A DNA stretch of 62,721 nt, filler included, from Sanchytrium tribonematis (GCA_018985235.1; 11 parts of 11 records of this genome joined end to end with filler, not necessarily neighbours in it); one strand, 5' to 3'. Counted from the first letter of the whole stretch, positions 16,722-62,721 are shown. The notes: generated by a model not told the origin, from the letters alone. Translations and numbers: made by a program.

Positions 16722-17370
16722 TTACAAAATCATACACCCACCACCGGATTTCTTCTTCTTTTGACCAGCATCTGGGAGTTGTTTGTTAATTTGTCGAACT
16801 AAATCATAAAATACTTCGTCGACATTGATCTTCTTTCTTGCAGATGTTTCCAAGAATGTGCTTCCCCAATTATTGGCAAGATTCTGTCCTTCTTGTTGTG
16901 AAACAACACGATCATCTACCAAATCACATTTGTTGCCGCAAAGAACCATTGGTACCTAAATAAACTAAAAATACTTTTGGAGAATCTTTGACTCGGGTGA
17001 TTTGTTCTCTCAATTCATTAAGATCTGCAAATGTTGCCTGAGATGTGATAGAATAAACCAAGGCGAAACCTTCTCCTTTTTTCATATACATATCTCTCAT
17101 GGCTGTAAATTGTTCGGTTCCTGCTGTATCCAATATTTCCAACATGCATTGTTGGCCATCAATTTCGACCTGTTTACGATATGAGTCCTCAATGGTAGGG
17201 TCATATTTTTCAACGAATATAGATTGAACAAATTGCACGGTAAGAGCGGATTTTCCAACACCACCACTGCCTAAAACAACTAATTTGTATTCACGCACTA
17301 CGTTAGTATAAATTTAGAGATAGAGCCCAAGATTCTGGTACTTGAAATCTTGAACTCATGGAGACATACT
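16722..17370 (-). CDS. RAP1: Rap1 small GTPase, 185 aa; join(17370, 17297..16975, 16955..16722)
   Basis: [28 protein letters not shown] (Thr61 typical of Rap), NKCDL, ETSA, CAAX CMIL; two introns join the two ORF-track fragments. Confidence 0.95.
16956..16974 (-). other. 19-nt spliceosomal intron in RAP1
   Basis: GTATTTTTAGTTTATTTAG; removal gives [18 protein letters not shown] in exact Rap1 register (V109). Confidence 0.88.
17298..17369 (-). other. 72-nt intron splitting the RAP1 start codon (A|TG)
   Basis: GTATGT donor, TACTAAC branch site directly followed by GTAG acceptor; splicing creates ATG CGT GAA TAC. Confidence 0.88.
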
Positions 17371-17530
17371 TTTTGTGTTTCAAAAATTGTTTCAAAAGAA
17401 GGAGATTATTGAATTCAGTAATGAATATGAAAAGTCATGCAGTCTTTTCGCCAAAATAAATATTTTAAAAGAAATGTTATTCAATCGTTGTAAATCTTGG
17501 GCTCGTATTTTCAAGCGACACACAAGGAGT

Positions 17531-17824
17531 ATGTCTGATTTATTCAACGATGGTTTATTTGAAAAACATGTAATACACGTTAGAGTACAGCAAAGAAATG
17601 GAAGGAAAACTTTGACAACTGTTCAAGGTCTTCCTGAAGATTTAGACCAGAAGAAAATGGTTAAATATTTTAAAAAAGAATTTGCTTGCAATGGCACAAT
17701 TGTGAAAGACGAAGATGGTATGGAAATCATTCAGCTTAGTGGTGATCAAAGGGATAAAATTAAAGAGTTTCTAATGGCCCAGGAAATATGCCAATCGGAT
17801 GAAATCAAGGTCCATGGATTTTAA
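17531..17824 (+). CDS. SUI1: Translation initiation factor eIF1
   Basis: IHVRVQQRNGRKTLTTVQG, KKEFACNG, IQLSGDQR, KVHGF. Confidence 0.95.
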   Translation: MSDLFNDGLFEKHVIHVRVQQRNGRKTLTTVQGLPEDLDQKKMVKYFKKEFACNGTIVKDEDGMEIIQLSGDQRDKIKEFLMAQEICQSDEIKVHGF

Positions 17825-17857
17825 TAAATTTCATTTAATCAAAGTGAAACCAAAGAA

Positions 17858-18205
17858 ATGTCCGAGAAAATTCATACGTCTTTATTTGCTTTATGCGTCA
17901 CACTATATTTTTTAGATCATTCAATAATATCCCTAGGACTTCGGTACTTGGGACTTCTGCATCCAATGCTCTCGTGGATCCATTTTCTCTCGTGGATGAT
18001 GCCTCCGTTAAATATTATTATAGACCCAATAGAAATGCAATCTTCCACCTTATTACATTCAATTTCATTATTTCTGTTTCAATGGCTAATAGAGTTGGAC
18101 GATTATTTTAGGCTGAATGACGAAAGTTTGGAAATCGGATTTTCTCATCTAAAACGATACTATAACCAGGATCCCGTTCAATCTTATGAACAGCTGCCAG
18201 TTTAA
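17858..18205 (+). CDS. Small membrane protein, possibly DUF1746-like
   Basis: Hydrophobic segments; LYFLDHS...LR and IIID...LFLFQ resemble the fungal DUF1746 pattern as I recall it. Confidence 0.5.
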   Translation: MSEKIHTSLFALCVTLYFLDHSIISLGLRYLGLLHPMLSWIHFLSWMMPPLNIIIDPIEMQSSTLLHSISLFLFQWLIELDDYFRLNDESLEIGFSHLKRYYNQDPVQSYEQLPV

Positions 18206-18220
18206 TTTCAAGTAAATAAT

Positions 18221-19834: not shown

Positions 19835-19875
19835 TGAAATTAAGTTTGAAAAATTTATACTTGTCACGAATTTAT

Positions 19876-22800
19876 TCAAGGAATCTCAGATATCAGCTTA
19901 TTACATTCAGCACCAAATATATTTTTGATGACACTTTCCCTTGAACTTTCGGCTTGAAATTTGTACAATTCTTTAGTCGTGAAGGCAGAAAAATGTTTTA
20001 AGGTTTCATAACAGGACTCTATCACTGCTTTATCCTGATTTTTGTTGGAGGCGGTACCGCGTTTTATTCCATCGACGAATACTGTGCATTTGTAGGTGCC
20101 ATTGACATCTAATTCTGGAAATATTTCACATTTTGATTTTAACAAGCCTTTTTTGACCAAGTAATTTCTTAAAACGATCTGATGCGATCGGATGGACTCG
20201 GATTCGTCTACAAGCACTTTTATTATTACTTCTCCAAAAGTCTTCCAGAGATCAGAAAGACTTTCACCAGAGTCAATAAATACACCGCCACAAAAAGATT
20301 CAAATATATCTCCAAACAACTTTTTCGTATCATACTTTCTGCAAGTTGCTTCAAATGTGTCAACATCATACGGATCAATATTGTAAAACAACCTAAGAAC
20401 TTCTGAGTAATTAGAATCAACAAATTTAAATAGCCTTTTTTCAAAGCATGACCGGGAGAATGCAACATTTTCAACAAGTCTCTGTTTAAAATTAGACAAT
20501 TTTCCTGGCAAATACAATGGGAAATTGACATAACTATACAAGGCACAACAGAAATCAAGAGCAGCGTCTCCAAGATACTCTAAACGATCAAACGCTTTGC
20601 ATTTTCCAGTTTCAAGGTGAATAGTAGAGCATTCTTCGAAAACCTTGATGTTTTTAAATTTATAACGGATAATGTTTTCACATTGAGCTTGTTTTTCTCT
20701 CTTCTCCATGGTAAGTACTGGTTTTTGCTGATACCTAGGATAACTTAATGACTTTAATATCCCATGGGTGATTTCAAATTTTTCTAAAACTGACTGATAG
20801 CACAATCCAGCGTGCACCATAAATTTTAAAGTTTCCTGCTCCCCAGCTGTACAATAAATTGCACCTATTAATGATTCCACCAAGTCGGCTACACACTTGT
20901 TCGTTATAGACCGAACTCCGTCCCATCTTTCGTAAGTTGATATTTTTGACTCATTGACAACGTGAACTTTTGTAAATAGTTCTGGTTCCATGAAGTCAAG
21001 GCAGAAAAGCGCTTCATCCATTCGCTTAAATTTCATTCTTTCCGGCAAGCGAAAAGTTTTAGCAATGCGGAACAAATTTGAATTTCTGACTTGCTCTGTT
21101 CGTTTCTTAGATAAATCGCCTTCCGTATAGCTGTCTTCCCTGCGATACAAATCTAACCCCACTGCATATTTCAAAAACGCATCGCCTAGAAATTCCAGCC
21201 GTTCGTAATTTTGAAAGTCCATCGCTTCGGTGTGAGTAAGGGCTTGGACAATACGATCTAAATGTGGGAGGTTCAACTTGAATTCTTGCTGAATATCAAA
21301 TGCGTGAGTTATGGTTTCAAGTTTGTAGAAAATAGAAGGGATTAGGTTACTAATCTTCAGATAGGAGACAGAAAAAGGAAGTATAGTACACACTTCTGGA
21401 GGAATATATATTGTGTTTTGGTTTTTGGCTTTGGCTTCCACAACTGACTTTGGACTCTCGTGATTTTTCAATGTGTACGAGTTTTTTGTTCGAATAAGTG
21501 GAGAATTTTTATATTTCAAGTCATAGTCATGTTTTTTCTTGTAGTATGATTGGTAAGTATATTTTGGCATAATCTCACTCGCGCAAGTCAGATGAGTTTC
21601 TATACCCTCAATGAAGTAGCTTCTATTGAAAGAATTAATTGCAAGACTCTGTATGCATCGTTTAATTTTTCCACTAATTTCCGGATGGATTTTTAAAAAT
21701 TCTGATTGATTAAAATTTGTAGACTCCGCATTACATAATGCATGGTAAACCTTTTCGAATTCACCATCAACGATATTGCAATTACTAAAATCGGATCCAA
21801 TCTCACCGCTTCTCGCTATCATTTTTTCTAAAGCTGAATGGGCATTTATCTTAACAGAATTATCAAGAACTCTCTCCATCATTCCATAATCAATTAAAAA
21901 TTCTTTACAAATGGTGTCTCTTGAAATGTACTCTAATTTGTAGTTTTGGTCTTTTTCAAAATCTAAATGGCTAAATTTTGGTTCCAAATATTTTGCTGCA
22001 ATTTTCGCTTTTGAAACACACGGTAAAATACAAAGAGAAACATCATTCATAAAATTTAAGCTATTAATTTCGCGAACCCATTCGCTAAAGTTATTTCTCT
22101 GGATTCCTTTTTCCTTCTCGACCTCTTGAAAAATTAATTCAAGCCTTTTTCGGAGATCCATATGATTTTGTTTTCTTAAAGTTAAGTTCCAAAACTCTTT
22201 CTGGAAATCTTTCAGCATATTTTCATCCAGGTCTATGGGCAACATCTGATGAAACGATACTCGGCAGGGAATTTGTTGATTAATCCAAATGAGACTTTCA
22301 GGAATTGTGCCTTCCAAAGGTTTTGCAGTTAGAAAGCAAAAACTTCTTAGGTAATCACCTGGGATATGTTGCAAATATTCCAAGGCCTCTGGCCCAAATG
22401 ATACTGCAATCGGATAGTAGTGATTATCATAATCTCCTTTAAAATAAGACGATGTTGAACGCTTATAATCATTTAATGTATCGTGATTCATTAATTTGTC
22501 TTCTGAATTTTTTCCGTAATCTTCTCCTGTTGCAATTACTTTGATTGGTTCTACATTGGAAACTGATTTGAATCTGGTGCTAGTAAGAAGTTTGTTTAGC
22601 TTCGAGTCTCCTCCGCCTTGTGAACCAACAGGTAAAAGATTTTTGTCTAATCCATTAAGACTATAAAGTCTTTTTATTGCCATTAGTGCCGCCGCATGCT
22701 TGGCAGCTTTCATGGTGAATCTCGGAGGTCCAATAATAGTTTCATTTTTAAAGTGTGTTATCACATTGGGAAATGATATTTCATATGCGAACTCATGGTA

Positions 22801-24993
22801 AATTACAGTATCACTTTCTCTAGGCTGTTTACCAGGAACAACTTCTGGAAAAGGCCCAAAAATATTCAAATCTCCAGAAACCTCCCGATAGTAATCATCG
22901 AGATTATCATCCCGGATATTTTGTGCTGCGTTTTTCCAACTTGGAGGCAACTCTAGATGAATTGTGTGATTTGGTGGCGATTTTTCCATTATTCTTCGTG
23001 CTTGTACATTTCTTCTAAATAGATACTTTTCTACTGTCTTAGTTGGCATCCTTCCTTGAGCAATTATCAGCTTCAACGTTGGCTTTCTGTTTTCTTTAGA
23101 AATACTTGTAGACCAATCCTGCTTGAGCAAATAGGTTTCAAGATTTCTCATAGCCTCACTGAGGTTTATTTGAGACAATCCCACTCGGAACGGCGCATCT
23201 GACTCAATGTGTTCATTGGAAGATGCTTCTTGATAAAGCCGCTCGTCTCTTTCGACTTCATCATCATTTTGAATTTCGTGCTGCTTTCCTCTTATTGTAC
23301 TGGTTTGAAAATATTCTTCAATATTGCGAGCCGCAAAGTTTTCTATCGATTGCTTGTCACCGTCCTCAAGGAAAATAATATATTCAGAATTTTTCTTTCT
23401 AGCTCTCCCTCTGGTCTGGATCATTTCCTTGCTAGTTTTCGGAACTTCAAACATAAAAACAATATTGCAGGAAGATATATCTATGCCTTCTTCGGAAACA
23501 TCGGTAGTAACCAAAAGGTTGTATTTCCCGGAGTTAAAATTACTAGTGATAGCTTCCTTGACATTAGGTCCTAATTCAGCATGCAAAAAATAAGGCTTGA
23601 CGGAATAAGGGACAATCTCAGTATGTGCTGCCTCATGGAGAAAAGATGCAAGGGTCGTTACCATTGCCTTATTGTTAATAAATATCAAACTTTTAACTTC
23701 ATCTGAAGAATCGTAAAGCCTATTTAAGTGAATTAAAAGATTAATAAGCTTCGAAGATATAAAAAGAATCGGTTCCACATCAGCACTATCAGGTGAAATT
23801 AAGTCATTCTTTGACCGAATCGAGGAGGTTGAGCCAATTAATTTGTTATAATGCATCAGACCTTTCAACTCTCCACTATCGAAAAAGCAATATTCCAAAT
23901 ATCTTCCAGCCAGCCAAGGTCCTAGTGAATTGTTGATATAATCTCCATTTCTAATCATTCGTTTAAATCCTTCTGATTCTTTATTTTTGGAATAATTTTG
24001 TTTTAGGTATAATTTTTGTCGATAGTACATAAAATGGCGATAGACTATGCAAGAAACTTTCTCGAATTCATCCCTGTTCTCCATTATAATTTTGGTTTCT
24101 TTAATATCATATTTTGGGTAAAACCTTGAAAAAAACAAAACTTTAGTCTTTGCCCTTGTCAAATATGCATCAATCATCTCTGGTGGAACCGTAGAGATTT
24201 TGCTCATCATAATTGATTCTAGTTCGTAAATGTCTTGATGAAGTTTTATATCGCTTTGGCTTTTAGATGCCAGTGGAGACGCAGTCATTCCAAAAACTCT
24301 TGGTCTACAAATAGGTTCCGTAGCTTTGTAGTAGTCGAGCATAATCCGCTTATAAACATGGTCTCCTGAGCAGTGGTGAGCTTCATCCAAAATTAACAAA
24401 GATATATTTGTCATTCTAATAAATCCCGTCTGTAAAAGATTCATTAAAATTTGAGGCGTCATTACAATAGCCTGAGTCTCTGAAAATGTTCTGTGCCATA
24501 AAATTCCATCCTCGGTGTCGGAAAATTTATCATGCTTAGTTTGACCTTGAAATTCTTTGACAACTAATTCTGCGTTATGCTGCAATTGAATCGTTTGCTG
24601 TTTAACGAGGGTAGTAGTGGGAACTAGAAAAATTACTTTCTTGTTTAATGTAGGAAGCATATTAAAAATTTCACTTTTGTCTTTCACTCTACCACTTTTG
24701 ATTTCTGTGACAATATCATCATATACCTTCTTCGGAAACAAATCCAGTGGTTCAGAGTACTCTTTTGCAAGAAGACAGGCAATTAAGGTTTTACCTGTTC
24801 CAGTTTCTAAAAAGGCAATTATATTCTCTTTACAAGCTTTTCGAAATAATAATTGTTGGTATGGTCTTGGATGTTGCACAATATTGGAGGTATTAATAAT
24901 TTCATTAGAAGATTGGTCAGCATTACTAGCTATCGATGGATCGTGGACTTGCATAAAATTATCAATGATAGCATCATCAACTTCCATCTCCAT
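19876..24993 (-). CDS. DCL: Dicer-like RNase III (DExD/H helicase, dsRBD-like dimerisation domain, PAZ, two RNase III, dsRBD)
   Basis: ETGTGKT, DEAHH, GMTASP, EEGIDI, QTRGRAR; PAZ-like TYQSYYKKKH...IPPEVC; NYERLEFLGD/ADLVES and DRLEYLGD/GDIFES; start taken at MEMEVDD. Confidence 0.95.
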   Translation of the reverse strand: MEMEVDDAIIDNFMQVHDPSIASNADQSSNEIINTSNIVQHPRPYQQLLFRKACKENIIAFLETGTGKTLIACLLAKEYSEPLDLFPKKVYDDIVTEIKSGRVKDKSEIFNMLPTLNKKVIFLVPTTTLVKQQTIQLQHNAELVVKEFQGQTKHDKFSDTEDGILWHRTFSETQAIVMTPQILMNLLQTGFIRMTNISLLILDEAHHCSGDHVYKRIMLDYYKATEPICRPRVFGMTASPLASKSQSDIKLHQDIYELESIMMSKISTVPPEMIDAYLTRAKTKVLFFSRFYPKYDIKETKIIMENRDEFEKVSCIVYRHFMYYRQKLYLKQNYSKNKESEGFKRMIRNGDYINNSLGPWLAGRYLEYCFFDSGELKGLMHYNKLIGSTSSIRSKNDLISPDSADVEPILFISSKLINLLIHLNRLYDSSDEVKSLIFINNKAMVTTLASFLHEAAHTEIVPYSVKPYFLHAELGPNVKEAITSNFNSGKYNLLVTTDVSEEGIDISSCNIVFMFEVPKTSKEMIQTRGRARKKNSEYIIFLEDGDKQSIENFAARNIEEYFQTSTIRGKQHEIQNDDEVERDERLYQEASSNEHIESDAPFRVGLSQINLSEAMRNLETYLLKQDWSTSISKENRKPTLKLIIAQGRMPTKTVEKYLFRRNVQARRIMEKSPPNHTIHLELPPSWKNAAQNIRDDNLDDYYREVSGDLNIFGPFPEVVPGKQPRESDTVIYHEFAYEISFPNVITHFKNETIIGPPRFTMKAAKHAAALMAIKRLYSLNGLDKNLLPVGSQGGGDSKLNKLLTSTRFKSVSNVEPIKVIATGEDYGKNSEDKLMNHDTLNDYKRSTSSYFKGDYDNHYYPIAVSFGPEALEYLQHIPGDYLRSFCFLTAKPLEGTIPESLIWINQQIPCRVSFHQMLPIDLDENMLKDFQKEFWNLTLRKQNHMDLRKRLELIFQEVEKEKGIQRNNFSEWVREINSLNFMNDVSLCILPCVSKAKIAAKYLEPKFSHLDFEKDQNYKLEYISRDTICKEFLIDYGMMERVLDNSVKINAHSALEKMIARSGEIGSDFSNCNIVDGEFEKVYHALCNAESTNFNQSEFLKIHPEISGKIKRCIQSLAINSFNRSYFIEGIETHLTCASEIMPKYTYQSYYKKKHDYDLKYKNSPLIRTKNSYTLKNHESPKSVVEAKAKNQNTIYIPPEVCTILPFSVSYLKISNLIPSIFYKLETITHAFDIQQEFKLNLPHLDRIVQALTHTEAMDFQNYERLEFLGDAFLKYAVGLDLYRREDSYTEGDLSKKRTEQVRNSNLFRIAKTFRLPERMKFKRMDEALFCLDFMEPELFTKVHVVNESKISTYERWDGVRSITNKCVADLVESLIGAIYCTAGEQETLKFMVHAGLCYQSVLEKFEITHGILKSLSYPRYQQKPVLTMEKREKQAQCENIIRYKFKNIKVFEECSTIHLETGKCKAFDRLEYLGDAALDFCCALYSYVNFPLYLPGKLSNFKQRLVENVAFSRSCFEKRLFKFVDSNYSEVLRLFYNIDPYDVDTFEATCRKYDTKKLFGDIFESFCGGVFIDSGESLSDLWKTFGEVIIKVLVDESESIRSHQIVLRNYLVKKGLLKSKCEIFPELDVNGTYKCTVFVDGIKRGTASNKNQDKAVIESCYETLKHFSAFTTKELYKFQAESSRESVIKNIFGAECNKLISEIP

Positions 24994-25122
24994 TGTATGA
25001 AGGGAAAATGATTTTATTTCCACTTCAAATATGATCCAGAATATAGCGTATTTGTCCGTCTTCTTCGTACTCTTTTTAGAATTTAGATTTATCTGTCTTG
25101 AATTTAAAGTTTTTAGGATACC

Positions 25123-27156
25123 ATGAAACATCTTAATAGACTGGCTTCGTCCACCTCGCCATATTTATTGCAACATAAACACGATTTAATTGACTGGTAT
25201 CCGTGGGGTACAGATGCTTTACATGCAGCACAGCAACATCACACGCCAATCTTCTTGTCGATTGGATATTCCAGTTGTCATTGGTGTCATGTGCAGCACC
25301 ACCTTAGTTTTCAAAACGAAAGCGTTATAGAGCTACTCAACAAACATTTTATTTGCATCAAAGTTGATAAGGAACAAAGACCCGATATTGATTCGATGTT
25401 CATGGACCTGGTTGTTGGGTTAACGGGATCTGGTGGACATCCCATGAGTATTTTCACGACTCCAGATTTGAAGCCAATCTATGGTGGCACTTATTATCCT
25501 CCTGAAGTGTTTAAGTCAATATTAAGGCAAATATTGACTCAGTGGAAAAACAATAGGGAAGATGTCGTCGAGTCTGCCAAAAAAATGTATCAATCTTTGT
25601 CTTCTGGCAACGATTATTCTAAAATAAGTGTACCAGAACAAAATGAAACGCCTCAACGACTAATACAACATTATATGAAAAGATTTGATACCGAATTTGG
25701 TGGATTTTCTAAGGAACCTAAGTTCCCAAGTGTTCCACAACTTCTGACACTTTACAAGGTATGTTTAGGTGCAATTTCTGGAATTTCGGATCCACAAAAA
25801 GCGGCGTCGTGGTCAATGCTGAGTAAGACATTGACTTGCATGAGGAATGGAGGTATTTATGACCAGCTTGAGTCGGGATTTCATCGTTATTCTGTAGATA
25901 GAAGTTGGCTGGTACCTCATTTTGAAAAAATGCTTTATGACCAAAGCCAGCTTTTGGATATCTATGCAAAAGCTACAGCTTTGGCAGTTCGTAGGAATGA
26001 CAAGCGTGCTGATTTATTTCAAAATACAATTTACAACGTTTTCGAATATCTCAATATTCGGATGAAGAGCGAAATGGGGGGTTATTTTACTGCCGAGGAC
26101 GCAGACTCTATGCCATTGAACGGTGAAAGAAACGTAGAGGGTGCCTTTTGTGTTTGGTCGGAGGATGAATTAGAGAGTATCTTGAACGATAGCCAATTTA
26201 AAGTAATTAAATATTACTATGGCATTGAGTCTAGCGGGAACGTGCCTAAGCAATATGATCACCAAGACGAATTAAAACACAAGAACATTTTGATGGTTTG
26301 TCATTCAATTGAAGAAATTGAGGAAAAATTTGGAATGGGTAGGGAAGAAGTTTTAAAGGTTTTGAAAAAATGCAAAGACATTATGTATAAATATAGAACT
26401 ACGCGACCACGACCTTTTAGAGATGAGAAGATTGTGACTTGTTGGAACGCAATGCTTGTCTGGGGATTCTTATCTTGTTATAAAACCACGAGCGACGCAA
26501 TTTTCAAGCAACACGCTATAGACTTATTAGATTTTATTCTTTTGAAGTTGAAACTTCCAGATTGCTACAAGCTTTGGAGAGACTATAAACACGATGAAAA
26601 CCCTTCTACAATGGGGTTCGCTTATGACTATGCTTGCGTAATCAAAGCACTTTTAGAATTTTATTATTTGGAGGGCGATCTTAAATATCTAAACTTGGCT
26701 CTTGAATTTCAATCTCAACAGGACGCTCTTTTTTGGGATCAGGATGAAGGAGATTATTTTACTTCAACTGAAGATCCTTACATTATCAGAGGTAAAGACG
26801 TCCAAGACGGTGCGGAGCCTTCGACACAGACAATTTCACTTGAAAATTTACTTTCCTTGTCAATGGCGACTTCTCGAGAAGAGTTTCTTGAAAAGGCCGA
26901 TAGAATGACTAAAATTTATCTCGGGGTCATCTCTCAAGCACCACACGCTGTGATTGGATTATCCGGGGTGATTTTAACACAATTTAGAAAAATCACAATC
27001 AACAAAAAGGACTATCACAAAATATCCGAAATTCTAAGAGATTCTGTGTATCCCACAATTCTTTCATTTGAAGACAAACTAGATGGAAACTTTATCGAAT
27101 GCTTAGGAGAAACTTGCTTTGACAAAAAACCTATTACCGATTTTCAAAAGATGTAA
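25123..27156 (+). CDS. SPATA20: SPATA20/YyaL-like thioredoxin plus six-hairpin glycosidase-like protein
   Basis: NRLASSTSPYLLQH, SIGYSSCHWCHV, GFHRYSVD, PHFEKMLYDQ, DGAEPS. Confidence 0.93.
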   Translation: MKHLNRLASSTSPYLLQHKHDLIDWYPWGTDALHAAQQHHTPIFLSIGYSSCHWCHVQHHLSFQNESVIELLNKHFICIKVDKEQRPDIDSMFMDLVVGLTGSGGHPMSIFTTPDLKPIYGGTYYPPEVFKSILRQILTQWKNNREDVVESAKKMYQSLSSGNDYSKISVPEQNETPQRLIQHYMKRFDTEFGGFSKEPKFPSVPQLLTLYKVCLGAISGISDPQKAASWSMLSKTLTCMRNGGIYDQLESGFHRYSVDRSWLVPHFEKMLYDQSQLLDIYAKATALAVRRNDKRADLFQNTIYNVFEYLNIRMKSEMGGYFTAEDADSMPLNGERNVEGAFCVWSEDELESILNDSQFKVIKYYYGIESSGNVPKQYDHQDELKHKNILMVCHSIEEIEEKFGMGREEVLKVLKKCKDIMYKYRTTRPRPFRDEKIVTCWNAMLVWGFLSCYKTTSDAIFKQHAIDLLDFILLKLKLPDCYKLWRDYKHDENPSTMGFAYDYACVIKALLEFYYLEGDLKYLNLALEFQSQQDALFWDQDEGDYFTSTEDPYIIRGKDVQDGAEPSTQTISLENLLSLSMATSREEFLEKADRMTKIYLGVISQAPHAVIGLSGVILTQFRKITINKKDYHKISEILRDSVYPTILSFEDKLDGNFIECLGETCFDKKPITDFQKM

Positions 27157-27303: not shown

Positions 27304-28156
27304 GTTTTTCCTTGATTATGGCCCAGACATGTTCAATTGGGTTCATGTCCGGTGACTGGGCCGGCCATTCCACCAACTGAATGTCTTTCCGTGCCAAATA
27401 ATCCATCACTTTTTTTGCCTTGTGAGGCCTCGCATTATCCTGCATAAACACCAATGGTGTTCTGATGCTTGTAGCTCCGGTTCTACAGTGTCCTTGATAA
27501 TATCCAAATACGAATTCTGGTTAATTCGCCCTTCAACCACTCGAAGTGGACCAAATTCGTAAAATGAAAAACAGCCCCAAAACATGACACTAAATCCACC
27601 TTGCTGTTTTAACGGAATTGTTGGCCTGTATAGTTTCTTTACACTTGAATGTACTTTTATCTGTATTTGCCGTCGAGTTGGGAATGTTGTAACTGATGTT
27701 TCGTCGGACCATAAAATATTTCTCAAATATTCAATTTCATTTAAGTACTTTCTAGCAAATTTTAACCTCTTTAATTTATTTCTAGCACTTAATACAGGTC
27801 TTTTATAGGCCTTGACGGTAATAATTCCGTTGTCATCTGCGTATTTTTTGAGCCAGGAGTGACAAATTGAGATTTTGAATTCGTCAAATATATAGCCTGA
27901 AAGTCTTCTATAACTTAATCTTGGGTTTGCTAAGAGTTGTTGTTTAATAAATACCCCTATTGGACCAGTTATTTTGCTGTTTTTATGGATATTTGGCTTG
28001 GGTGGCAATCCTTTTATTCCTCTTAAAATTCTGATAAAATTTTCGACAGGTCTCCCAATTGACATTCTGTGCTATACCGATGGGTTTCCACTCCCAACAT
28101 TCCTCTTCGTTCAATCGGATGACCTCTTTTTGCTTCTCAGATGTCAATTTTGTCAT
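27304..28156 (-). mobile_element. Tc1-family (DD34E) transposase, frameshifted and 3'-truncated
   Basis: ILWSDET, VMFWGCF, FMQDNARPH, WPAQSPDMNPIEHVW with 34 residues between D and E; about three frameshifts (near 28125, 28020, 27455); ATG at 28156. Confidence 0.9.
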
Positions 28157-28169
28157 GTTTAAAGGGGTG

Positions 28170-28650
28170 GGAAAATATTACTTTACAAACAATACTTATC
28201 TCGCAAAACATGAAAGATTAGGTGTAGGTTTTATTGCAGCTTATTATGAATCTTTAGCAAATGTTTGCATTACTGAGATTGTTAGCAAATCGAAGCAGTT
28301 TGAAGCTGATGAATTAGGCGAATATAACGGTAGCTTTATAAAATGGTATCCAAATAATACGTCATGTTAATCTGTATAATTTTGATCCTGATGCAGAACG
28401 TGCTACTTTAAGAACCAGAACTTCTGTTGATCCATTGACAAAGACAAGAAGTGAATGTGAAGCGCGAATATATAAAATTTTAGATAGAGCTTCTCCAAGT
28501 GAACTGACTGATAAAGTTTGTGTATTTTGTAACGTTGAAATGTTATCGACCCAAAAACATGTCTGTGATAAATGTCTTCAACTTGTACATGGATTTACTA
28601 TTGGATGTATGAATAGAAGTAATATCTGTTTAAATTGTACCAATGAATAA
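28170..28650 (+). pseudogene. Decayed ORF fragment ending in a Cys/His zinc-finger (PHD-like), probably transposon-derived
   Basis: CVFC...HVCDKC..LVH..GC...ICLNC; upstream frame broken by a stop; lies between Tc1 and Helitron remnants. Confidence 0.4.
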
Positions 28651-31262: not shown

Positions 31263-31955
31263 GATTACTGTATTGCCTGCGATCTAGATGAGCTGTTTAA
31301 AGAAAACTTGAATCCACATGCTCTCAGCCCGCTCTGTCCCACAAATCTTTTGTACCATTCTTGGATTCTATTCAAAGATCTTGCAGGACATTCTCAGCAA
31401 GACAGTCATGAGTATTTTATGCATTTACTTAATGCCTTGCATGATGCATTATCTCCTAATTCCAAAAGCGCAAGATGCAGATGTATCGTACATTATGCTT
31501 TTGGTGCGACCTTAGAGTCTGTAGTGCGTTGTACGGCTTGCAATAGCAAAAGCTTAAGATCCGATCCTGTCTTAGACATAAGTCTTGATATTAGAATGAG
31601 CACTTCTAGATATAATTTGTTAATGTGCTTAGATCAGTTTTGAGGTGGTGAGCACTGGTAATCCCACTAACAATAGGCATAAAATTGACAACCAAATTAT
31701 ATTTCCTTTAGACCTAAATATGAGCAAGTATAGCAAAGATGCTAATTCATACTATGAGCTATTTTCGGTAGTTATGCATCGTGGAAAATTAGATTCGTAT
31801 ATAGTCATTTATTTAGAGGTCATTATTCGATGTACGCAAAGTCAAACGAACGTTGGTTTTATTTTGATGACCACAAGGTCGATTGTGTCTCAACTGAGGA
31901 TGTACTTAACACAAAAGCTTATCTACTTTTCTATTCTCGAAAAGTTATTCAATGA
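31263..31955 (+). CDS. UBP8: Ubp8/USP22-like deubiquitinase, 3' part; has a 20-nt intron and an internal deletion/frameshift near 31640
   Basis: CIACDLDELF, LAGHSQQDSHE, CRCIVH, DPVLDISLD, FPLDLNM, spliced HRGKLDSGHY...WFYFDD...AYLLFY. Confidence 0.8.
31797..31816 (+). other. 20-nt spliceosomal intron in UBP8
   Basis: GTATATAGTCATTTATTTAG; removal restores the catalytic His box LDS|GHY and the conserved C-terminus. Confidence 0.88.
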
Positions 31956-42599: not shown

Positions 42600-42767
42600 T
42601 TATTGTTCTTTAGGAAAATATCTGTTACCTATTACAGGAAGTTTGCTCAAAATATCTCTTTGAAAAATTGGAATTCTTTCAGCAAAGTAAAATACACCTA
42701 ATCCAGCAGCTGCCCCCCAAATACCCAAAGTTGGTCCCCAGCGAGAAACAAACGTACGCACAGCCAT
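42600..42767 (-). CDS. QCR10: Cytochrome bc1 complex subunit 10 (55 aa; below the ORF-track cutoff)
   Basis: MAVRTFVSRWGPTLGIWGAAAGLGVFYFAERIPIFQRDILSKLPVIGNRYFPKEQ*. Confidence 0.85.
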   Translation of the reverse strand: MAVRTFVSRWGPTLGIWGAAAGLGVFYFAERIPIFQRDILSKLPVIGNRYFPKEQ

Positions 42768-43127: not shown

Positions 43128-43818
43128 CCAATTGCTGGCAGAGATATCACTCAATTTATCCAACAATGTTTAAGAGATCGAAATGAGCCTATTCCCCCTG
43201 AGGATTCTTTATTATTAAGTCAAAGAATCAAGGAATTATACAGTTACACGTGTCCTGATGTCGTGAAAGAATTCAAGAAATTTGAGCAAGAACCAGATAA
43301 ATATATCAAACAACACACGGATTATCATTCTATTACTAAAAAGGAGTATACTGTAGATGTAGGATATGAGAGATTTATGGGTCCTGAAGTCTTTTTTAGT
43401 CCAGAAATATGTAATCCTGATTTTACCACCAGTTTGCCTGATTCTGTAGATCATTCAATTCAGTCATGCCCTATAGATGTGAGAAGAGGATTATACAAGA
43501 ATATCGTGTTGAGTGGTGGATCTACCATGTATAAAGATTTTGGAAGAAGATTGCAGCGAGATATCAAGAGAACTGTAGAAGATCGATTATTATATGCAGA
43601 ACAAAGTCATTTTTATTAATTTAGTGAGTAAAACAAAGCCAACACCCATTGATGTGAATGTGGTAACGCATAAGAAGCAGAGATATGCAGTGTGGTTTGG
43701 AGGCAGTTTATTAGCAAGTACGCCTGAATTTTTACAATATTGTCATACTAAAAAGGATTATGAGGAATATGGACCAGGCATTGTCAGACATTCGCGTGTC
43801 TTTGGAAATATGGGGTGA
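43128..43818 (+). CDS. ARP3: Actin-related protein 3, 3' part; join(<43128..43605, 43625..43818)
   Basis: [63 protein letters not shown]. Confidence 0.95.
43606..43624 (+). other. 19-nt spliceosomal intron in ARP3
   Basis: GTCATTTTTATTAATTTAG; removal gives [17 protein letters not shown] and joins the two ORF-track frames. Confidence 0.82.
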
Positions 43819-52758: not shown

Positions 52759-52857
52759 ACGATTAACAAATCAACCATTTAATTTAAGCGTGCAAGATTT
52801 CCAATCATTGGTTCAAATATTTAAAATTGACACAAATGAAATTCATCTGACCACCGT

Positions 52858-53526
52858 ATGTTCTTCTCAATAGTCATTCTCGCATTATCAATATCAAAGA
52901 CAGATCCTATAGTTACCATCTCACAACCATGTCAAATTGCCATTGGTGAGTTTACAACATGTTTACAAAAATTCAATGACAACTTTTTCATTCCCATAGA
53001 GGGAGATCAATGCACCAGTTGCGCATCAAGTTATAAATCGTATCAATTGGCATGCGCATCTGAAATTGCTGCTAAAAATTACATTGTATTTGCTTATGAT
53101 GTGATTTGCCATCAAGAAAAAGGTATTTATTGCAACAATCAAATCAGTCAGACACAAGTTACATTTAACTGCAAAAATGCATGTCATCAATATGCTGCTA
53201 ATTTCATTTTAAATGCACCACAAGGAATGGGATTCATGTACACCAAATCTGCCAAAATAATTAAAAATGGAAATGAATTAAAGCCTAGTGTCTACACAAA
53301 ATACTGGGATTTAGATCAAATGGCTAAATGCGTGGATGATAAATGTACTGAATCATCATGGCAGTATTATTCTTGCATAAATAGCAAGAAATCACTGGGA
53401 GTTAGTAAAATGTGCAAGATGTGCGATGCTTCCAATTATCATAAATACTGCAAATCAAGCAAATTTATGACATGGTCTGATACGACGCACATGCTTAACT
53501 TGTGTTCTACATACAAGAACAAATAA
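52858..53526 (+). CDS. Secreted Cys-rich protein, tandem family member 1
   Basis: Hydrophobic N-terminus; CTSCAS.Y..Y..AC..EIAA.NY.VF.YDVICHQEKG.YCN. Confidence 0.8.
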   Translation: MFFSIVILALSISKTDPIVTISQPCQIAIGEFTTCLQKFNDNFFIPIEGDQCTSCASSYKSYQLACASEIAAKNYIVFAYDVICHQEKGIYCNNQISQTQVTFNCKNACHQYAANFILNAPQGMGFMYTKSAKIIKNGNELKPSVYTKYWDLDQMAKCVDDKCTESSWQYYSCINSKKSLGVSKMCKMCDASNYHKYCKSSKFMTWSDTTHMLNLCSTYKNK

Positions 53527-53591
53527 ATTTAAATTTTACAAGCCACGAAACTTTTTTGTAATAAAAAATTTAAAATGGCTCAAGCCACTTG

Positions 53592-54500
53592 ATGCTATTA
53601 ACCACGACCATTCTAGCTCAGCTACTTCACAAACCAGAAGACTTCCAAGCTATTGATATTGGAACAGATTTATCTTCAGCCTGCACAAAAGCAGTCTCAG
53701 ATTTCACGGTTTGTTTGAATAACTACGGGTCCAAAGGATCAGACCAGGATAAGTGTACCAGTTGCGCGTCAAAATACTCTGATTACAAGTCAGCCTGCTC
53801 CATTGAAATTGCTGCAAACAATTACCAGGTTTTCAACTATGACGTGATTTGTCATCAAGAAAATGGAGTCTACTGCAATACTCCAGTAAATAACACCCAA
53901 GGCACCTTCAATTGTAACAGCGCATGCCACAAGTACGCGTCAAACTTTGTTTTAAGCGGGCAAGAAAGTGTTGGATATTTGTATTCTAAAGCTGCCAAAA
54001 AGACCAGCCCATACTTTGCAAACTACTGGAATTTAGAAGATATGGTATCTTGCTTAGATACTGGATGCGTTAAATCAACCTGGAATCGATTTTCATGCGT
54101 GTATGACAAATTTCAGTTCCTTGATAAATCTGCATCTGAATTTAGCACAGCAATAGCAAGTACATGCAGTGGATGCGATCCAAGTGATTTTCAAGCACAA
54201 TGTAAATGGCCATACAAAATGGCAATGGCGTATCAATTGGATCAAATCTGTCACAAGGAAAATGGAGAATTTTGTTACACAAAATGGTTTGATGTAGCAG
54301 GTACTGGAAAACTAAACAATTTTACTTGCTCTGCATGTGATGAGTACTTGTATACTTCATACTTGAAGGATTTGACTATCAAGGGGGATGCCGTTGCCAA
54401 ATATGCAGAATCTGGCTACAACAGCACTTCTTTCCAAAAATGTGCTTCCTCTGGTGTCACTGGAATGATTCTGGGATTGTTGGGATTGTTGATGTTGTAG
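53592..54500 (+). CDS. Secreted, possibly GPI-anchored Cys-rich protein, tandem family member 2 (two internal repeats)
   Basis: YDVICHQENGVYCN and LDQICHKENGEFCY repeats; hydrophobic C-terminus SSGVTGMILGLLGLLML. Confidence 0.8.
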   Translation: MLLTTTILAQLLHKPEDFQAIDIGTDLSSACTKAVSDFTVCLNNYGSKGSDQDKCTSCASKYSDYKSACSIEIAANNYQVFNYDVICHQENGVYCNTPVNNTQGTFNCNSACHKYASNFVLSGQESVGYLYSKAAKKTSPYFANYWNLEDMVSCLDTGCVKSTWNRFSCVYDKFQFLDKSASEFSTAIASTCSGCDPSDFQAQCKWPYKMAMAYQLDQICHKENGEFCYTKWFDVAGTGKLNNFTCSACDEYLYTSYLKDLTIKGDAVAKYAESGYNSTSFQKCASSGVTGMILGLLGLLML

Positions 54501-54634
54501 ACATGTCAATAAATTGTGAAATTGAATTTTCTGCAAAATGCAACCGTGCAGGATTCATCTTGCAAACATCTGCAAGAAATACTTTAATTGGTACAAGTCA
54601 TCACATTTGTCTCAAAGTGATAAACGACCCTCTA

Positions 54635-54856
54635 ATGAACATGATCTTTTCCATCGCAATTCTAGCATTAAGACTACCAAAAAACCCTAACAAGTATGGC
54701 ATTTCAGAAAACTGCAACATCACAATTAGCAATTTCACAGTTTCATTAAACGATTACTCTTTGATAAAACCAGAAGCATCTGATCAAGAGATATGCACAC
54801 AACCTCAAGTTAAAAGCGATTACAAAGATTATCAATCTGCATGCGCTCCTGAAATC
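54635..54856 (+). CDS. Secreted Cys-rich protein, tandem family member 3, truncated
   Basis: MIFSIAILAL (cf. MFFSIVILAL); IS.NC..TISNFT; YKDYQSACAPEI. Confidence 0.7.
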
Positions 54857-56342: not shown

Positions 56343-56372
56343 TTTTATTTTTAAGGAGATATCTGTGTTGCA

Positions 56373-58794: not shown

Positions 58795-58894
58795 NNNNNN
58801 NNNNNNNNNNNNNNNNNNNNNNNNNNNNNNNNNNNNNNTTAATTAATTAANNNNNNNNNNNNNNNNNNNNNNNNNNNNNNNNNNNNNNNNNNNN
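58795..58894. other. Artificial contig linker
   Basis: N44-TTAATTAATTAA-N44. Confidence 0.98.
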
Positions 58895-58960
58895 TATCCC
58901 CTTAATTCCCCCTCTCTTCTCTTTCAAATGTCTCTATTTTTCCTCCTTGAAAATCTCAAA

Positions 58961-59460
58961 ATGAAATCCATCCAAATGCCCATTAATCTACTCCAACACA
59001 TTAAACAATTTCCATTAATCCCGCCAATTAAGAATAAAGTCGTTCAACAGGATCAATTGATGATTATGATGGTCGGTGGTCCCAATAATCGATCTGATTA
59101 TCACATTAATCCCACAAATGAATGGTTTTATCAATTACAAGGCACCATGACTCTCAAAATCATTGAAAATGGCATATTTAAAGATGTAGAAATCAAACAA
59201 GGTGAATCTTTTTTATTGCCCTCTTTAATGCCACATTCCCCTCAAAGAACACCAAATTCATTGGGATTGGTGATTGAAATGGAACGACCTCGTGATTTAC
59301 TAGATGAGTTAAGATGGTATTGTAAACAATGTAAGCATTTAATGCACTCAGAACACGTGAGGGTGAATGATTTAAACAGGATTTAATTGGACCCATCAAG
59401 AAATATACACAAAATGAACATTCTTGTGAGAAATGTGGGGAATTGCATCAGTATCAGTAA
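58961..59460 (+). CDS. BNA1: 3-hydroxyanthranilate 3,4-dioxygenase; C-terminus in another frame after about 59380
   Basis: VGGPN.RSDYHINPT.EWFYQ, PHSPQR, GLVIE, LRWYCKQC; the second CxxC (CEKC) lies in a shifted frame ending at TAA 59460. Confidence 0.9.
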
Positions 59461-59492
59461 AATGAATTCTTATATTTATTTGCTTTTGGAGA

Positions 59493-60302
59493 TTACTTTC
59501 TTGTCTTTGTTCCACCAGCCATTTCTCTCAATTTCTCCTTCAAAAATGTTCCTCCAACCTTGAGGGACTGAAATACTTTTCCGATCGTTCCTAAAAGACT
59601 TTTTTCACCGGAAACACTAACAGTTATGACTATACTTACGACAACCATCGCCAAATTTTTAATGGCATCTGATTTAACGACTCTTGACCAATTAATTGCT
59701 GACGCAAATCTTACTACTTCAGGGCCGATGTTATTGATTAACTTATAAGTGTACAAAGAAATAGCCGCGAAGCCAAAGGCGTAGACAATGCCCCTGAATT
59801 CGGCTAAACTCACTACTTTACTCTCTACTTTTTGAATGGGTGGATTTTCTTCTGCTTTTTTTCTTATCATTCTTTTCTTTAATTCCACATAGGGATTTTG
59901 ATGTACATTTACCCACTTAGTCAGAATTGCTTCAGCTTCCTGCATAACTTCTTCGTCAGATGAGATCGAGTCTAAGAGATCTGCCCAAAACTCAAACAAT
60001 TGAGCCTTTAATTCTTCAGATACACTCAAATTAGGCAATTTGCATGTTTCCATTCTCCCACTTTGAATGCACTCATTTAATTGCGTGGCATCGATCTCAT
60101 CAATTTGAGGATTTTCCAACTTAATTTGGTTCTTCAAATGTTCAATTTTGTCTATATCATAAGGATTCAAATCACTTGATGATCCCGTTGATTCACCTTT
60201 TTGAGGGAGAGCATCGATAGTAGATAAGTCAGATGACTCAATGGCTGCGTTTCTCGCCCAATCTGTTTTCTTTGAAAACATTGAAATGATCAAAAACAAC
60301 AT
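59493..60302 (-). CDS. Hypothetical membrane-associated protein
   Basis: Long ORF with hydrophobic N-terminus and two hydrophobic segments; start uncertain. Confidence 0.6.
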   Translation of the reverse strand: MLFLIISMFSKKTDWARNAAIESSDLSTIDALPQKGESTGSSSDLNPYDIDKIEHLKNQIKLENPQIDEIDATQLNECIQSGRMETCKLPNLSVSEELKAQLFEFWADLLDSISSDEEVMQEAEAILTKWVNVHQNPYVELKKRMIRKKAEENPPIQKVESKVVSLAEFRGIVYAFGFAAISLYTYKLINNIGPEVVRFASAINWSRVVKSDAIKNLAMVVVSIVITVSVSGEKSLLGTIGKVFQSLKVGGTFLKEKLREMAGGTKTRK

Positions 60303-60427
60303 GTGCACAGTGAAAGTACCCGTGATTCTATTTATGTCTAATCGAACCAATAAAGCGCATTAAAACTGGTTACAAATAACTCCTCTGGTTTTACGTCGTT
60401 GTACAAAAGAGTACAAACTTTTCTGAT

Positions 60428-62721
60428 TTATTCACTATATCCCAAATAGTCTGTAGTTGTGCTTTGTTTTCTTTTAATTTGCTTAAATCTCCCACGACTC
60501 ACTACATGTCCCATTAATATCACACTAATCAACATTCTCAAAATAGCAGATAGATTCAATATAGCCACCATTTGGACTGAATTGAAGATGGCATCAATAT
60601 TAGAATGAGAAATGGATTGGATTGTAGTAGTTTCATTCTGAGTGGATAATGGGATGATGGATGGAATATTGGGAATATTGGATGTAGTAGATGGTTGTTT
60701 GGATTGAATTAATGCTTTACGGGTGATGATGGGTGCTATATGAGAATAAATTACGATTTATAGTGATTATGGGAAGAGGGGATGTGCTAGTCGATTCAAT
60801 ATTATTCAGTACATTAAATGACTCACTACCAATGGATTCTAAAATAGTTGAAAGTGTCAGACTGGATTGCCAACTGGATTTCAAACTGGATTTCAAAGTA
60901 GATGGCGCATTGGGTTTCGAAAAATAGTCAGATACTTCACAATTTTGTAAATTTAATAAATTAGACTGATTGTATAATAAATTACCACTTAAATCACATC
61001 CAGATATCAATTTAGGATTCAATACAGTCACATTAGATATCAAATTATCATGAATATAAATATTTATAGTAGAAGTTGATTTAAATAATAATTGACCACT
61101 GATTTGATTACGCGTGAGTTGATTTTTAATACCAATGACCAAATCAGATAATTTAGATGGTATTTGTGGAATTAAACCAGTGATGAAATTGCTTTGTACA
61201 TACAAATAGACTAAATTATTTGAAAATGTGGGTGGTATTTGGGTTAATTTGTTGTATGAGACATCTAAATACGTCATTGTATCTGTCATATTGGGAATAT
61301 TACCAATAAATTGATTTTGATGGAAATCAGCAATGGCTAAACTACTGCCAAATAGTGGCAAATATGAATTGAATTGATTGTTATTTGCATATAGACTATT
61401 TAAAGTGGTTGGGATGATAAATGTACCATTGAATTGATTATCTGCTATATTCAAATTAGTTTTTAAATTGGGAAATATGAAATTAGAAAATGATCCTTTA
61501 AAATGATTAAAATTGAGATCCAACGAAGTTAAATAGGAAGAATTGTATTTTGTACCATTTAATAAATTACCAGTCAAGGCTAATCCTTGTAAAGATGGTG
61601 GAAAACTACCCACAATCTTTATAATTTGATTAAATGCCAATCTTAATTGTGAAATAGTTGGAGGAATTAGTGCAAAATCTAAAATGACATTTGTACCACC
61701 TTGATTCTGATAATCCCAATTAATATAAGTCACACTTCCTTGACTACACCCAATATTTTCTGCAGTACAACAATTATCCACCAAAGTTGAAAAATAAACA
61801 GGATTTTGTATATTTAAATAAAATGATTTTGCAAGTGATATCAGCTTATTACAATCATCATTAATTGGCTGAATATTCCCAATTAAACAATCAGATGGTA
61901 AATTCAATTGTTTAATGAATAAATTTCCCCTTACATCACAAACAAGTCCACTTCCAAATCCACCAGCAACCACATTGACTCCAGATATCTTGTTATAGCT
62001 AATATTCACTTGATAATGACTAGAATACATTGTAAAATTACCAGTAAATTGATTATTTGATATATCTATTTGTTGAACATACTCTGAATTTAATAAATTG
62101 GATACATTTCCAGTCAAATTATTGTGTCTCAAATTTAATGTTTGAAAGGGTCTCAAATTCCCTTGAAATAACCCACTTAATCGATTAAAACTCAAATCCA
62201 AGTTTCTCAATGCATTTAAACTAGTAATATTCCCAATAAATTGATTATATCTCCCACTTAATTCAGTCATAAATGGTGGAATAGCTGGTATTTTCCCACT
62301 TAAATAATTGTAATCTATTCTAATCTGTATTAAATTAGTTGGAAATGATGGTAAATTACCACTTAATTGATTAAATCTCATATATCCATGCACCAATGTT
62401 GATGGAAACACAATAGATCCATTAAATTGATTATTAGCAATGAATAAATCCTTGACATTATTTAATAATGGTATTTTCCCACTCAATTGATTATAAGTCA
62501 CATCAAATGCAATCAAAGTACTACTACTATTCAAATTTAATGTCCCATTCAATAAATTACATCCCAATTTCAAATTACTGATTGGTAATTTAAAATGTAC
62601 TTGTCCCGTCAACAAATTATTATATAAATTCAAAGTATCTAGATATTCTGGTAATATAACATTTGTAATATTACCATTTAATTGTTTATTACTCCAATCA
62701 ATGCTAATCACATTGTTATTG
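60428..62721 (-). CDS. Plant-type LRR receptor-like surface protein, 5'-truncated; join(>62721..60755, 60735..60428)
   Basis: Lx.N.LxGxIP repeats in two blocks separated by a Cys cap (DCNKL...NCC...IGC...VTYINW); S/T stalk; splicing adds a TM-like segment and basic tail RGRFKQIKRK. Confidence 0.85.
60736..60754 (-). other. 19-nt spliceosomal intron in the LRR gene
   Basis: GTAATTTATTCTCATATAG; removal bypasses the stop at 60717 and opens about 100 more codons. Confidence 0.75.

What the first reader, a model, noticed from the sequence alone, without database searches (positions are those of the whole stretch)
16956..60754. A system of ultra-short (19-20 nt) spliceosomal introns with a fixed branch A at -6 in a fungus-like genome
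Seen: four genes on four different contigs are each broken by a frameshift that is repaired exactly by removing a tiny GT..TAG segment. RAP1 GTATTTTTAGTTTATTTAG (19 nt, 16956-16974); UBP8 GTATATAGTCATTTATTTAG (20 nt, 31797-31816); ARP3 GTCATTTTTATTAATTTAG (19 nt, 43606-43624); LRR GTAATTTATTCTCATATAG (19 nt, 60736-60754). All end Y-T-N-A-T-W-T-A-G, with T at -8 and A at -6. The one longer intron (72 nt, RAP1) ends TACTAACGTAG, placing its canonical branch A also at -6. Established: typical fungal introns are about 50 nt or longer; comparably tiny introns are known from heterotrich ciliates (15-16 nt, also with a conserved A near -6), chlorarachniophyte nucleomorphs (about 18-21 nt) and, slightly longer, microsporidia. 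Inference: this lineage has a spliceosome that excises lariats with a loop of only about 14 nt, without a polypyrimidine tract, by reading a fused branch/acceptor motif. I know of no fungal report this short, and gene predictors with a normal minimum intron length would miss them.
Basis: partly seen in the sequence, partly recalled or inferred. Interest (0 to 1): 0.92.

Follow-up and report, generated by a model that had tools for sequence, protein, structure and literature searches.

The report
Nineteen-base introns in sanchytrid fungi
Five genes of the alga-infecting fungus Sanchytrium tribonematis are interrupted by 19-20-base segments that are very likely spliced out as introns, shorter than any fungal intron I found in print, and the public protein sets for this fungal phylum miss them; no RNA data were available to show the splice.

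Summary
Observation confirmed. The DNA is Sanchytrium tribonematis or conspecific. The four GT..TAG segments sit where stated. A fifth (12774-12792, retinoblastoma-like gene) was found.

Removing exactly 19-20 nt is the best-scoring repair for RAP1 and UBP8; ARP3 lies in a variable loop. Contigs of run X1 (possible source) carry the RAP1, RB-like and LRR segments unchanged at 150-220x.

Relatives break at the same codon: ARP3 5 of 5, RAP1 3 of 3, RB-like 3 of 3. Three decodable relatives have 19-, 19- and 21-nt introns, each with A forced at -6. The RAP1 site matches an exon junction in other fungi and fish, so it is an ancestral intron shrunk to 19 nt. The UBP8 intron is absent in 3 of 3 relatives. 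LRR is the weakest case.

The motif alone is not above chance. No RNA run exists here, so splicing and the branch point are inferred. Amoeboradix keeps U1-70K, U2AF, BBP, SF3B1, Prp8 and Dbr1, with no Slu7/Prp18 annotated, as in Stentor.

A new variant of U2-type tiny introns; none found reported for sanchytrids. This scan earlier noted 26-32-nt introns in Rozella, not these.

The parts
16956..16974 (-). 19-nt intron, RAP1, phase 0 between K108 and V109
   Evidence: best repair; unchanged in X1 contig at depth 220.7; same break in 3 of 3 close relatives and at an exon junction of other fungi and fish
17298..17369 (-). 72-nt intron splitting the RAP1 start codon (A|TG); GTATGT donor, TACTAAC branch with A at -6, internal 13-bp hairpin
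   Evidence: only canonical CTAAC-type 3' end directly ahead of a long frame among 11 hits; hairpin z -2.3; relative P0247 reads through a matching end..TNV|V
16722..17370 (-). RAP1 small GTPase gene, 3 exons
   Evidence: Pfam Ras split at profile position 105/113; homologues
12774..12792 (-). 19-nt intron (new here), phase 0, near the 3' end of a divergent retinoblastoma-like gene
   Evidence: relatives P0267 and P0269 decode to 19-nt introns followed by the same exon (8 of 11 residues each); unchanged in X1
12651..15078 (-). retinoblastoma-like gene (764 aa as publicly called, plus 40 codons once spliced)
   Evidence: exact EukProt entry P0265; homologue P0269 hits Pfam RB_B at E 1.3e-5, just under the cut-off; P0265 itself has no RB hit
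31797..31816 (+). 20-nt intron, phase 2, in the His box of UBP8
   Evidence: best repair; EukProt S. tribonematis P0260 reads through it; 3 of 3 relatives are contiguous there
31263..31955 (+). 3' part of the UBP8/USP22-like deubiquitinase gene; the window copy also lacks about 119 nt at ~31636
43606..43624 (+). 19-nt intron, phase 1, ARP3
   Evidence: 5 of 5 close relatives depart at the same codon; P0123 carries a 21-nt in-frame version
43128..43818 (+). 3' part of the ARP3 gene
60736..60754 (-). 19-nt intron, phase 1, LRR surface-protein gene (weakest case: no homologue tested)
   Evidence: unchanged in X1 contig at depth 153.2; the spliced frame gains a hydrophobic C-terminal segment (mean hydropathy 2.27 against 1.36)
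60428..62720 (-). 3' part of an LRR / Ser-Thr-Pro stalk / predicted membrane-anchor gene

Best explanation
These segments are very likely ordinary U2-type spliceosomal introns shrunk to 19-21 bases in the intron-poor sanchytrid fungi, and they are predicted to be cut out as tiny lariats using an adenine six bases before the 3' end. Shown: GT-AG ends, exact repair of conserved proteins, the same positions in related genomes with unrelated interiors, and an ancestral junction for RAP1. Inferred: U1 and then U6 pair with a minimal GT(A/C) donor, and U2 with BBP/U2AF reads a degenerate T-N-A-Y branch that is fused to the YAG. The branch is anchored to the 3' end, not counted from the 5' end: it stays at -6 in introns of 19, 20, 21 and 72 nt. 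The lariat loop is then 14-16 nt with a 5-nt tail. At so short a branch-to-AG distance the second-step factors Slu7 and Prp18 would be unnecessary, and they appear to be lost.
For: Repair scores. No indels in X1 contigs over RAP1, RB-like and LRR. Relatives break at the same codon: ARP3 5 of 5, RAP1 3 of 3, RB-like 3 of 3. Of 11 relative peptides decoded, 3 have their length fixed by the downstream exon (21, 19, 19 nt) and all 3 have A forced at -6; 2 more (20 and 18 nt) have A-6 and T-8 forced if the stop is the intron's TAG. Of 131 RAP1 homologues, 40 depart from the consensus at residue 108/109, mostly fish exon-skip or read-through models plus Paraphysoderma, Boothiomyces, Umbelopsis and Olpidium, marking an ancestral junction. 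The A. gromovi annotation lists U1-70K, U2AF35, U2AF65, BBP, SF3B1, Prp8, Prp16/22/17, Cwc25, Isy1 and the lariat debranching enzyme Dbr1, with no hit for SLU7 or PRP18. Slu7/Prp18/Prp22 are not needed below 7 nt in yeast (PMC3392075). Stentor has A at -6 and no detectable Slu7/Prp18 (PMC9505925).
Against: No spliced read or lariat was seen. The motif is no commoner than chance and is not depleted from coding sequence, so specificity is unexplained. For P0121, P0126 and P0246 the only AG visible inside the read-through peptide would give 14-, 18- and 15-nt introns with T at -6; these either run past the stop or break the rule. P0247 is undetermined, and P0002 and P0122 leave -6 unforced. 3 of 3 forced A's has a chance of 3-6% on its own. 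The UBP8 intron is absent from 3 of 3 relatives. The Slu7/Prp18 absence comes from an automatic annotation of an intron-blind proteome of the sister genus, where only about half of the proteins are annotated; C. merolae lacks both although many of its branch-AG distances are long. snRNAs were not examined.
Confidence: 0.8

Rival explanations
1. The introns are real, but the 3' end is chosen by a length ruler from the donor or by the first AG beyond a minimum distance; the A at -6 is incidental or only one of several branch options.
For: Lengths cluster at 19-21 nt. Earlier internal AGs (position 7-8 in UBP8, 8-9 in RAP1) are skipped. Three relatives cannot be fitted to A-6 within their visible peptide. 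The interiors are A/T-rich.
Against: A stays at -6 while its distance from the donor is 14, 15, 16 and 67 nt. The 72-nt intron and the 21-nt P0123 intron show a canonical TAAC-type branch in that register. A second AG two bases downstream in UBP8 would break the frame.
Confidence: 0.12
2. The introns are spliceosomal but spliced inefficiently, as in microsporidia, so that retention throttles expression or, for the LRR gene, yields a secreted instead of an anchored form. This is compatible with the best explanation; here it is scored as the main biological role.
For: Short E. cuniculi introns are spliced at under 20% (PMC6349667). All five window introns shift the frame. The unspliced LRR frame ends 12 codons on, without the hydrophobic tail.
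Against: No expression data. RAP1, ARP3 and UBP8 need their last exons, and Mikrocytos 16-nt introns reach 63% splicing.
Confidence: 0.25
3. Assembly errors or decayed genes.
For: The window does contain non-intron breaks: a ~119-nt gap in UBP8 against P0260, a one-base frame break in 3-HAO and a broken transposase. X1 may be the source of the window and is then not independent.
Against: The extra DNA is 19-20 nt, not 1-2. It is unchanged at 150-220x in three genes. It recurs at the same codon, with other sequences and lengths, in 11 relative proteins.
Confidence: 0.02
4. Non-spliceosomal removal (endonuclease-ligase splicing of the HAC1/tRNA type) or ribosomal bypass.
For: The size resembles 20-26-nt HAC1/XBP1-type introns (recalled, no call).
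Against: All have GT-AG ends. The two folded (RAP1, ARP3) have no structure (0 kcal/mol). The RAP1 position is a spliceosomal junction in other opisthokonts. The core spliceosome and Dbr1 are annotated in the sister genus.
Confidence: 0.03

Closest known systems
Stentor coeruleus 15-16-nt introns (PMC9505925; passages and Table 1 rows seen)
   Same: GT-AG, U-rich, putative branch A six bases from the end, Slu7 and Prp18 not detected
   Different: ciliate; about 8,800 introns all 15-16 nt; here 19-21 nt, few, and a 72-nt intron with canonical TACTAAC coexists
Mikrocytos mackini 16-17-nt introns (PMC10245619; abstract and passages)
   Same: parasite, tiny uniform introns, a few hundred per genome
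   Different: rhizarian; spliceosome cut to 17-19 proteins with U2, U4 and U6 identified, whereas Amoeboradix keeps U1-70K, U2AF and BBP
Microsporidian introns, Encephalitozoon cuniculi 22-76 nt (PMC3629993, PMC6349667; passages); Rozella about 30 nt
   Same: fungus-related parasites, intron-poor, short introns alongside a rare ~75-nt intron with a strong branch
   Different: 22 nt or longer, strict branch motif, U1 snRNA not identified; sanchytrids are a separate lineage, sister to Blastocladiomycota
Anchored branch-AG introns of Yarrowia lipolytica, Trichomonas and Giardia (PMC2483917; passages)
   Same: no pyrimidine tract; in Yarrowia 2 nt between branch motif and AG, which puts the A at -6
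   Different: Yarrowia introns are long (median 204 nt) with a strong ACTAAC; here the motif is degenerate and the intron a tenth of the size
Myxobolid and dicyemid introns, median 22-27 nt (PMC13644364; parts 1-2 of 3 read); chlorarachniophyte nucleomorph introns (sizes recalled)
   Same: extreme shortening in parasites with U2AF kept
   Different: animals or nucleomorph; in myxobolids the A stretch moves away from the AG as length grows, here it stays at -6

Membership tests
U2-type spliceosomal intron | GT-AG boundaries | tested here: met
   5 of 5 tiny introns and the 72-nt intron
U2-type spliceosomal intron | removal restores the conserved reading frame and protein | tested here: met
   RAP1 and UBP8 top-scoring; ARP3 best GT-AG option; RB-like exon matches relatives; LRR not tested against homologues
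U2-type spliceosomal intron | position conserved while the sequence diverges | tested here: met
   ARP3 5 of 5, RAP1 3 of 3 plus other fungi and fish, RB-like 3 of 3; not met for UBP8 (0 of 3)
U2-type spliceosomal intron | segment absent from mature mRNA | not testable with these tools
   no RNA holder listed
U2-type spliceosomal intron | branch adenosine forming a lariat | tested here: inconclusive
   A at -6 in 6 of 6 window introns and 3 of 3 decodable relatives; others undetermined; no lariat data
U2-type spliceosomal intron | host encodes a major spliceosome | tested here: met
   proteins annotated in sister genus A. gromovi; U1-70K and Dbr1 also in the S. tribonematis rows seen; snRNAs not examined (none in the window)
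Uniform tiny-intron systems (Stentor, Mikrocytos) | all introns confined to a 1-2-nt size range | tested here: not met
   19, 20 and 21 nt (possibly 18) plus a 72-nt intron
Uniform tiny-intron systems (Stentor, Mikrocytos) | loss of Slu7/Prp18 | tested here: inconclusive
   0 hits by name or by recalled KO/KOG ids in the A. gromovi annotation sheet; no sequence search was possible
Anchored branch-AG introns (Yarrowia type) | fixed 2-nt branch-AG spacing without a pyrimidine tract | tested here: met
   the 72-nt intron ends TACTAAC-GT-AG; the tiny ones share the register
Anchored branch-AG introns (Yarrowia type) | strong ACTAAC consensus in most introns | tested here: not met
   1 of 6 window introns; the tiny ones have only T-N-A-T
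HAC1/tRNA-type non-spliceosomal intron | structured ends cut by an endonuclease, no GT-AG rule | tested here: not met
   2 of 2 tiny introns folded have no structure; all are GT-AG

The most novel reading that the evidence does not exclude
Across the phylum Sanchytriomycota most introns are 18-21 nt, the shortest in the fungal kingdom including microsporidia. They are excised by a spliceosome that keeps U1, U2AF and BBP but has discarded Slu7-Prp18 because the branch A is locked at -6. This would be an independent repeat of the Stentor solution in an opisthokont, with new tiny introns (UBP8) still arising.
Probability: 0.45. Interest if true: 0.82.

Novelty: new variant of a known kind. Interest (0 to 1): 0.68.

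Why it matters
It would lower the intron-size floor for fungi from 22 nt (microsporidia) to about 19 nt. It would add a further independent lineage in which tiny size goes with a branch A at -6 and, apparently, loss of Slu7/Prp18, which points to a general geometric limit on lariat formation. Being fungal, these introns can be tested directly in budding or fission yeast reporters. Practically, the two published sanchytrid proteomes were called with TransDecoder on genomic contigs with no intron model (PMC8371127). They hold truncated or wrong-ended proteins: S. tribonematis UBP8 without its catalytic His box, A. gromovi ARP3 cut at 346 aa, and an RB-like protein lacking its tail. Gene-loss and annotation claims built on them need rechecking.

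Tried and rejected
No whole genome is held for this window, so there is no genome-wide intron histogram and no snRNA or spliceosome search; an Rfam scan of the window found nothing. Sequencing runs: one DNA run, X1, possibly the source; no RNA holder listed, which is no evidence on expression. The single metagenome scan, with a degenerate ARP3 pattern, gave one chance bacterial contig (L001), so relatives' introns are known only through their translated read-through. Motif enrichment and depletion from coding sequence: both negative. Motif hits rejected as introns: 18351-18365/73/76 (inside an intact Mit_KHE1 frame), 14845-14861 (antisense), 29926/28-29943 (Helitron remnant), and 42687-42706 (no recognisable gene; not followed up). 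The 3-HAO break was considered as a sixth intron of 17 or 23 nt (59363-59379 has GT..AG and A at -6). A one-base frame change scores better against 3 of 3 bacterial homologues (333/307/329 against 312/299/314) and keeps the CxxC spacing nearer (31 against 25; homologues 33), so it is not counted. The K04353 row in the A. gromovi sheet is ambiguous, so I do not claim RAP1 is missing from the published proteome. Literature searches for an earlier report: (listings). Term searches inside PMC8371127, PMC10459994 and bioRxiv 2025.06.19.660294 found 'intron' only in a reference title or not at all. The supplementary PDF and one spreadsheet of PMC8371127 were too large to read and could bear on novelty; subscription journals are not covered.
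Full report
Source. The window joins 11 contig pieces with N spacers; GC is 34% and genes are dense and mostly unbroken. The UBP8 N-terminal part is 100% identical over 99% of 125 residues to EukProt EP00834 Sanchytrium tribonematis P005048 (P0260). Two other window proteins are exact EukProt entries. ARP3 is 94% identical to a cluster holding Amoeboradix gromovi ARP3. The DNA is therefore S. tribonematis or conspecific: phylum Sanchytriomycota, algal parasites sister to Blastocladiomycota, with 10-11-Mb genomes (PMC8371127, section 6 read). That paper called genes with TransDecoder on contigs (section 18 read), and its main text mentions introns only in a reference title.

Observation. The four segments are present as described, and removing them restores RAP1, ARP3, the UBP8 His box and an LRR tail. 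I scored every stop-free deletion of 1-40 nt and insertion of 1-2 nt within 45 nt of each site against homologues (40 of 68 for RAP1, 40 for ARP3, 3 for UBP8). The claimed removal ties for first in RAP1 and UBP8, 14-16 points above the best 1-2-nt repair. In ARP3 it is third of 744, 1.2 points below 13-nt deletions that are not GT-AG, and is the best GT-AG choice. Contigs of run X1, which may be the source of the window, carry both RAP1 introns and 12774-12792 at depth 220.7 with differences only at 15654-15765. They carry the LRR segment at depth 153.2 with no difference. The motif by itself is not special: 11 hits against 14.5 expected, and no depletion from coding sequence.

A fifth intron. 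Scans of the window gave GTAATTTAAATTTATTTAG at 12774-12792 (minus strand), two codons before the stop of a 764-aa frame. It sits in the longest gap among seven neighbouring genes (207 nt against 4-51). A search of 1.84 billion representatives returned three homologues, one with a weak RB_B hit. All three leave the consensus at the same codon. Two decode as 19-nt introns followed by the same exon as the window's spliced form, with 8 of 11 residues matched each.

Relatives. Intron-blind gene callers translate into introns, so the tails of related proteins record them. ARP3: 5 of 5 close relatives (84-96% identity) break at the same codon, including A. gromovi. P0123 holds a 21-nt in-frame version, with 10 of 11 downstream residues matching. 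RAP1: 3 of 3 break at K108|V109. Of 11 relative tails decoded, three fix the length (21, 19, 19 nt) and all force A at -6. Two more give 20 and 18 nt with A-6 and T-8 if the stop is the intron's TAG. Two fit 19 nt with -6 unforced. Four are undetermined, and in three of those the only visible AG would put T at -6. Among 131 RAP1 homologues, 40 depart at this residue: fish exon-skip and read-through models, and Paraphysoderma, Boothiomyces, Umbelopsis and Olpidium models; two rows are simple substitutions. This marks an ancestral opisthokont intron that has shrunk to 19 nt. The UBP8 intron is different: 3 of 3 relatives, A. gromovi among them, are contiguous there, while the public S. tribonematis protein reads through it and loses the catalytic histidine motif. 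Gain or loss is unresolved. The LRR intron has no homologue test; splicing adds a stalk and a hydrophobic segment.

Mechanism. Shown: GT-AG ends, exact repair, conserved positions. Inferred: U2-type lariat splicing with the branch A at -6, giving a 14-16-nt loop and a 5-nt tail. The A keeps its distance from the AG in introns of 19, 20, 21 and 72 nt, and the longest has a canonical TACTAAC in that register, which favours 3' anchoring over a 5' ruler. The eggNOG sheet for A. gromovi (supplementary file 4 of PMC8371127, term searches only; the file is cut at 4 million characters, which covers the A. gromovi sheet and only the first rows for S. tribonematis) lists U2AF35, U2AF65, BBP, SF3B1, Prp8, U1-70K, Dbr1, Prp16, Prp22, Prp17, Cwc25 and Isy1. 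It has no SLU7, PRP18, YJU2 or K12833 entry (ids recalled). Yeast needs none of Slu7, Prp18 or Prp22 for exon ligation below 7 nt (PMC3392075 passages), and Stentor lacks detectable Slu7 and Prp18. The fit is attractive, but absence from an automatic annotation is weak, and C. merolae lacks them without short spacing (PMC10158995 passages). How the cell avoids the many look-alike sites in exons is unexplained. Splicing may be inefficient, as in microsporidia.

Comparison. It works like the tiny introns of Stentor (15-16 nt) and Mikrocytos (16-17 nt) and shares the 2-nt branch-AG spacing of Yarrowia. It is not a member of the uniform-size class, since a 72-nt intron coexists, and it lacks Yarrowia's strong consensus. 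E. cuniculi introns are 22-76 nt, Rozella's about 30 nt and myxobolids' median 22-27 nt. A 644-genome fungal intron survey names no sanchytrid in the passages seen (PMC8476143). Searches found no report of sanchytrid introns or of fungal introns under 22 nt; unread supplements and subscription papers could hold one. Earlier notes of this scan concern 26-40-nt introns in Rozella, Neolecta and others, and none this genome or lineage.

Verdict. Observation confirmed. Real spliceosomal introns about 0.9; with a 3'-anchored branch at -6 about 0.8. New variant of a known kind. Interest 0.68: a likely size record for fungi and a correction for a phylum's proteomes, but tiny introns and fused branch/acceptor sites are each known elsewhere, the sample is small, and no RNA was seen.

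Noticed in passing
window 58895-59460 (+), break at about 59370-59377: The 3-hydroxyanthranilate dioxygenase frame ends early; the C-terminus with its second CxxC lies in the -1 frame, starting at a T-TTA-AAC heptamer (recognised from memory as a -1 slippery type). The break is unchanged in X1 at depth 204.9. A one-base shift fits homologues better than a 17- or 23-nt GT-AG removal. No stable downstream fold. Could be -1 frameshifting, a null allele or a sixth intron.
   Followed up: partly
window ~31636 (+): The window's UBP8 lacks about 119 nt (some 40 residues) that are present in the otherwise identical public S. tribonematis protein P0260: an assembly artefact or a deletion allele; not checked against reads.
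   Followed up: partly
window 12651-15078 (-): Highly divergent retinoblastoma-like protein, not recognised by Pfam in this species; one homologue hits RB_B at E 1.3e-5. No RB protein appears among the two 'retinoblastoma' rows of the annotation file.
   Followed up: partly
window 17298-17369 (-): The 72-nt RAP1 intron holds a 13-bp hairpin (z -2.3, 6 of 200 shuffles) that would shorten the donor-branch distance to about 30 nt.
   Followed up: partly
window 27304-31162: Contig of decayed mobile DNA: a frame-broken Tc1/mariner-type transposase and Helitron-like fragments.
   Followed up: no
window 19879-25164 (-): Intact 1,750-codon intronless Dicer-like gene: RNA silencing retained.
   Followed up: no
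window 3040-3872 (+): Two tandem GNAT acetyltransferase frames of similar sequence; origin not tested.
   Followed up: no
window 52840-54856 (+): Tandem cysteine-rich, probably secreted or anchored paralogues with no Pfam family.
   Followed up: no
window 59424-60490 and 60609-60683: X1 contigs show joints and lower-depth divergent copies around the LRR gene, suggesting a paralogous family or repeats.
   Followed up: no
window 42687-42706 (+): 20-nt GT..CTAATCCAG segment joining two short open frames with no Pfam match; a possible further intron.
   Followed up: no
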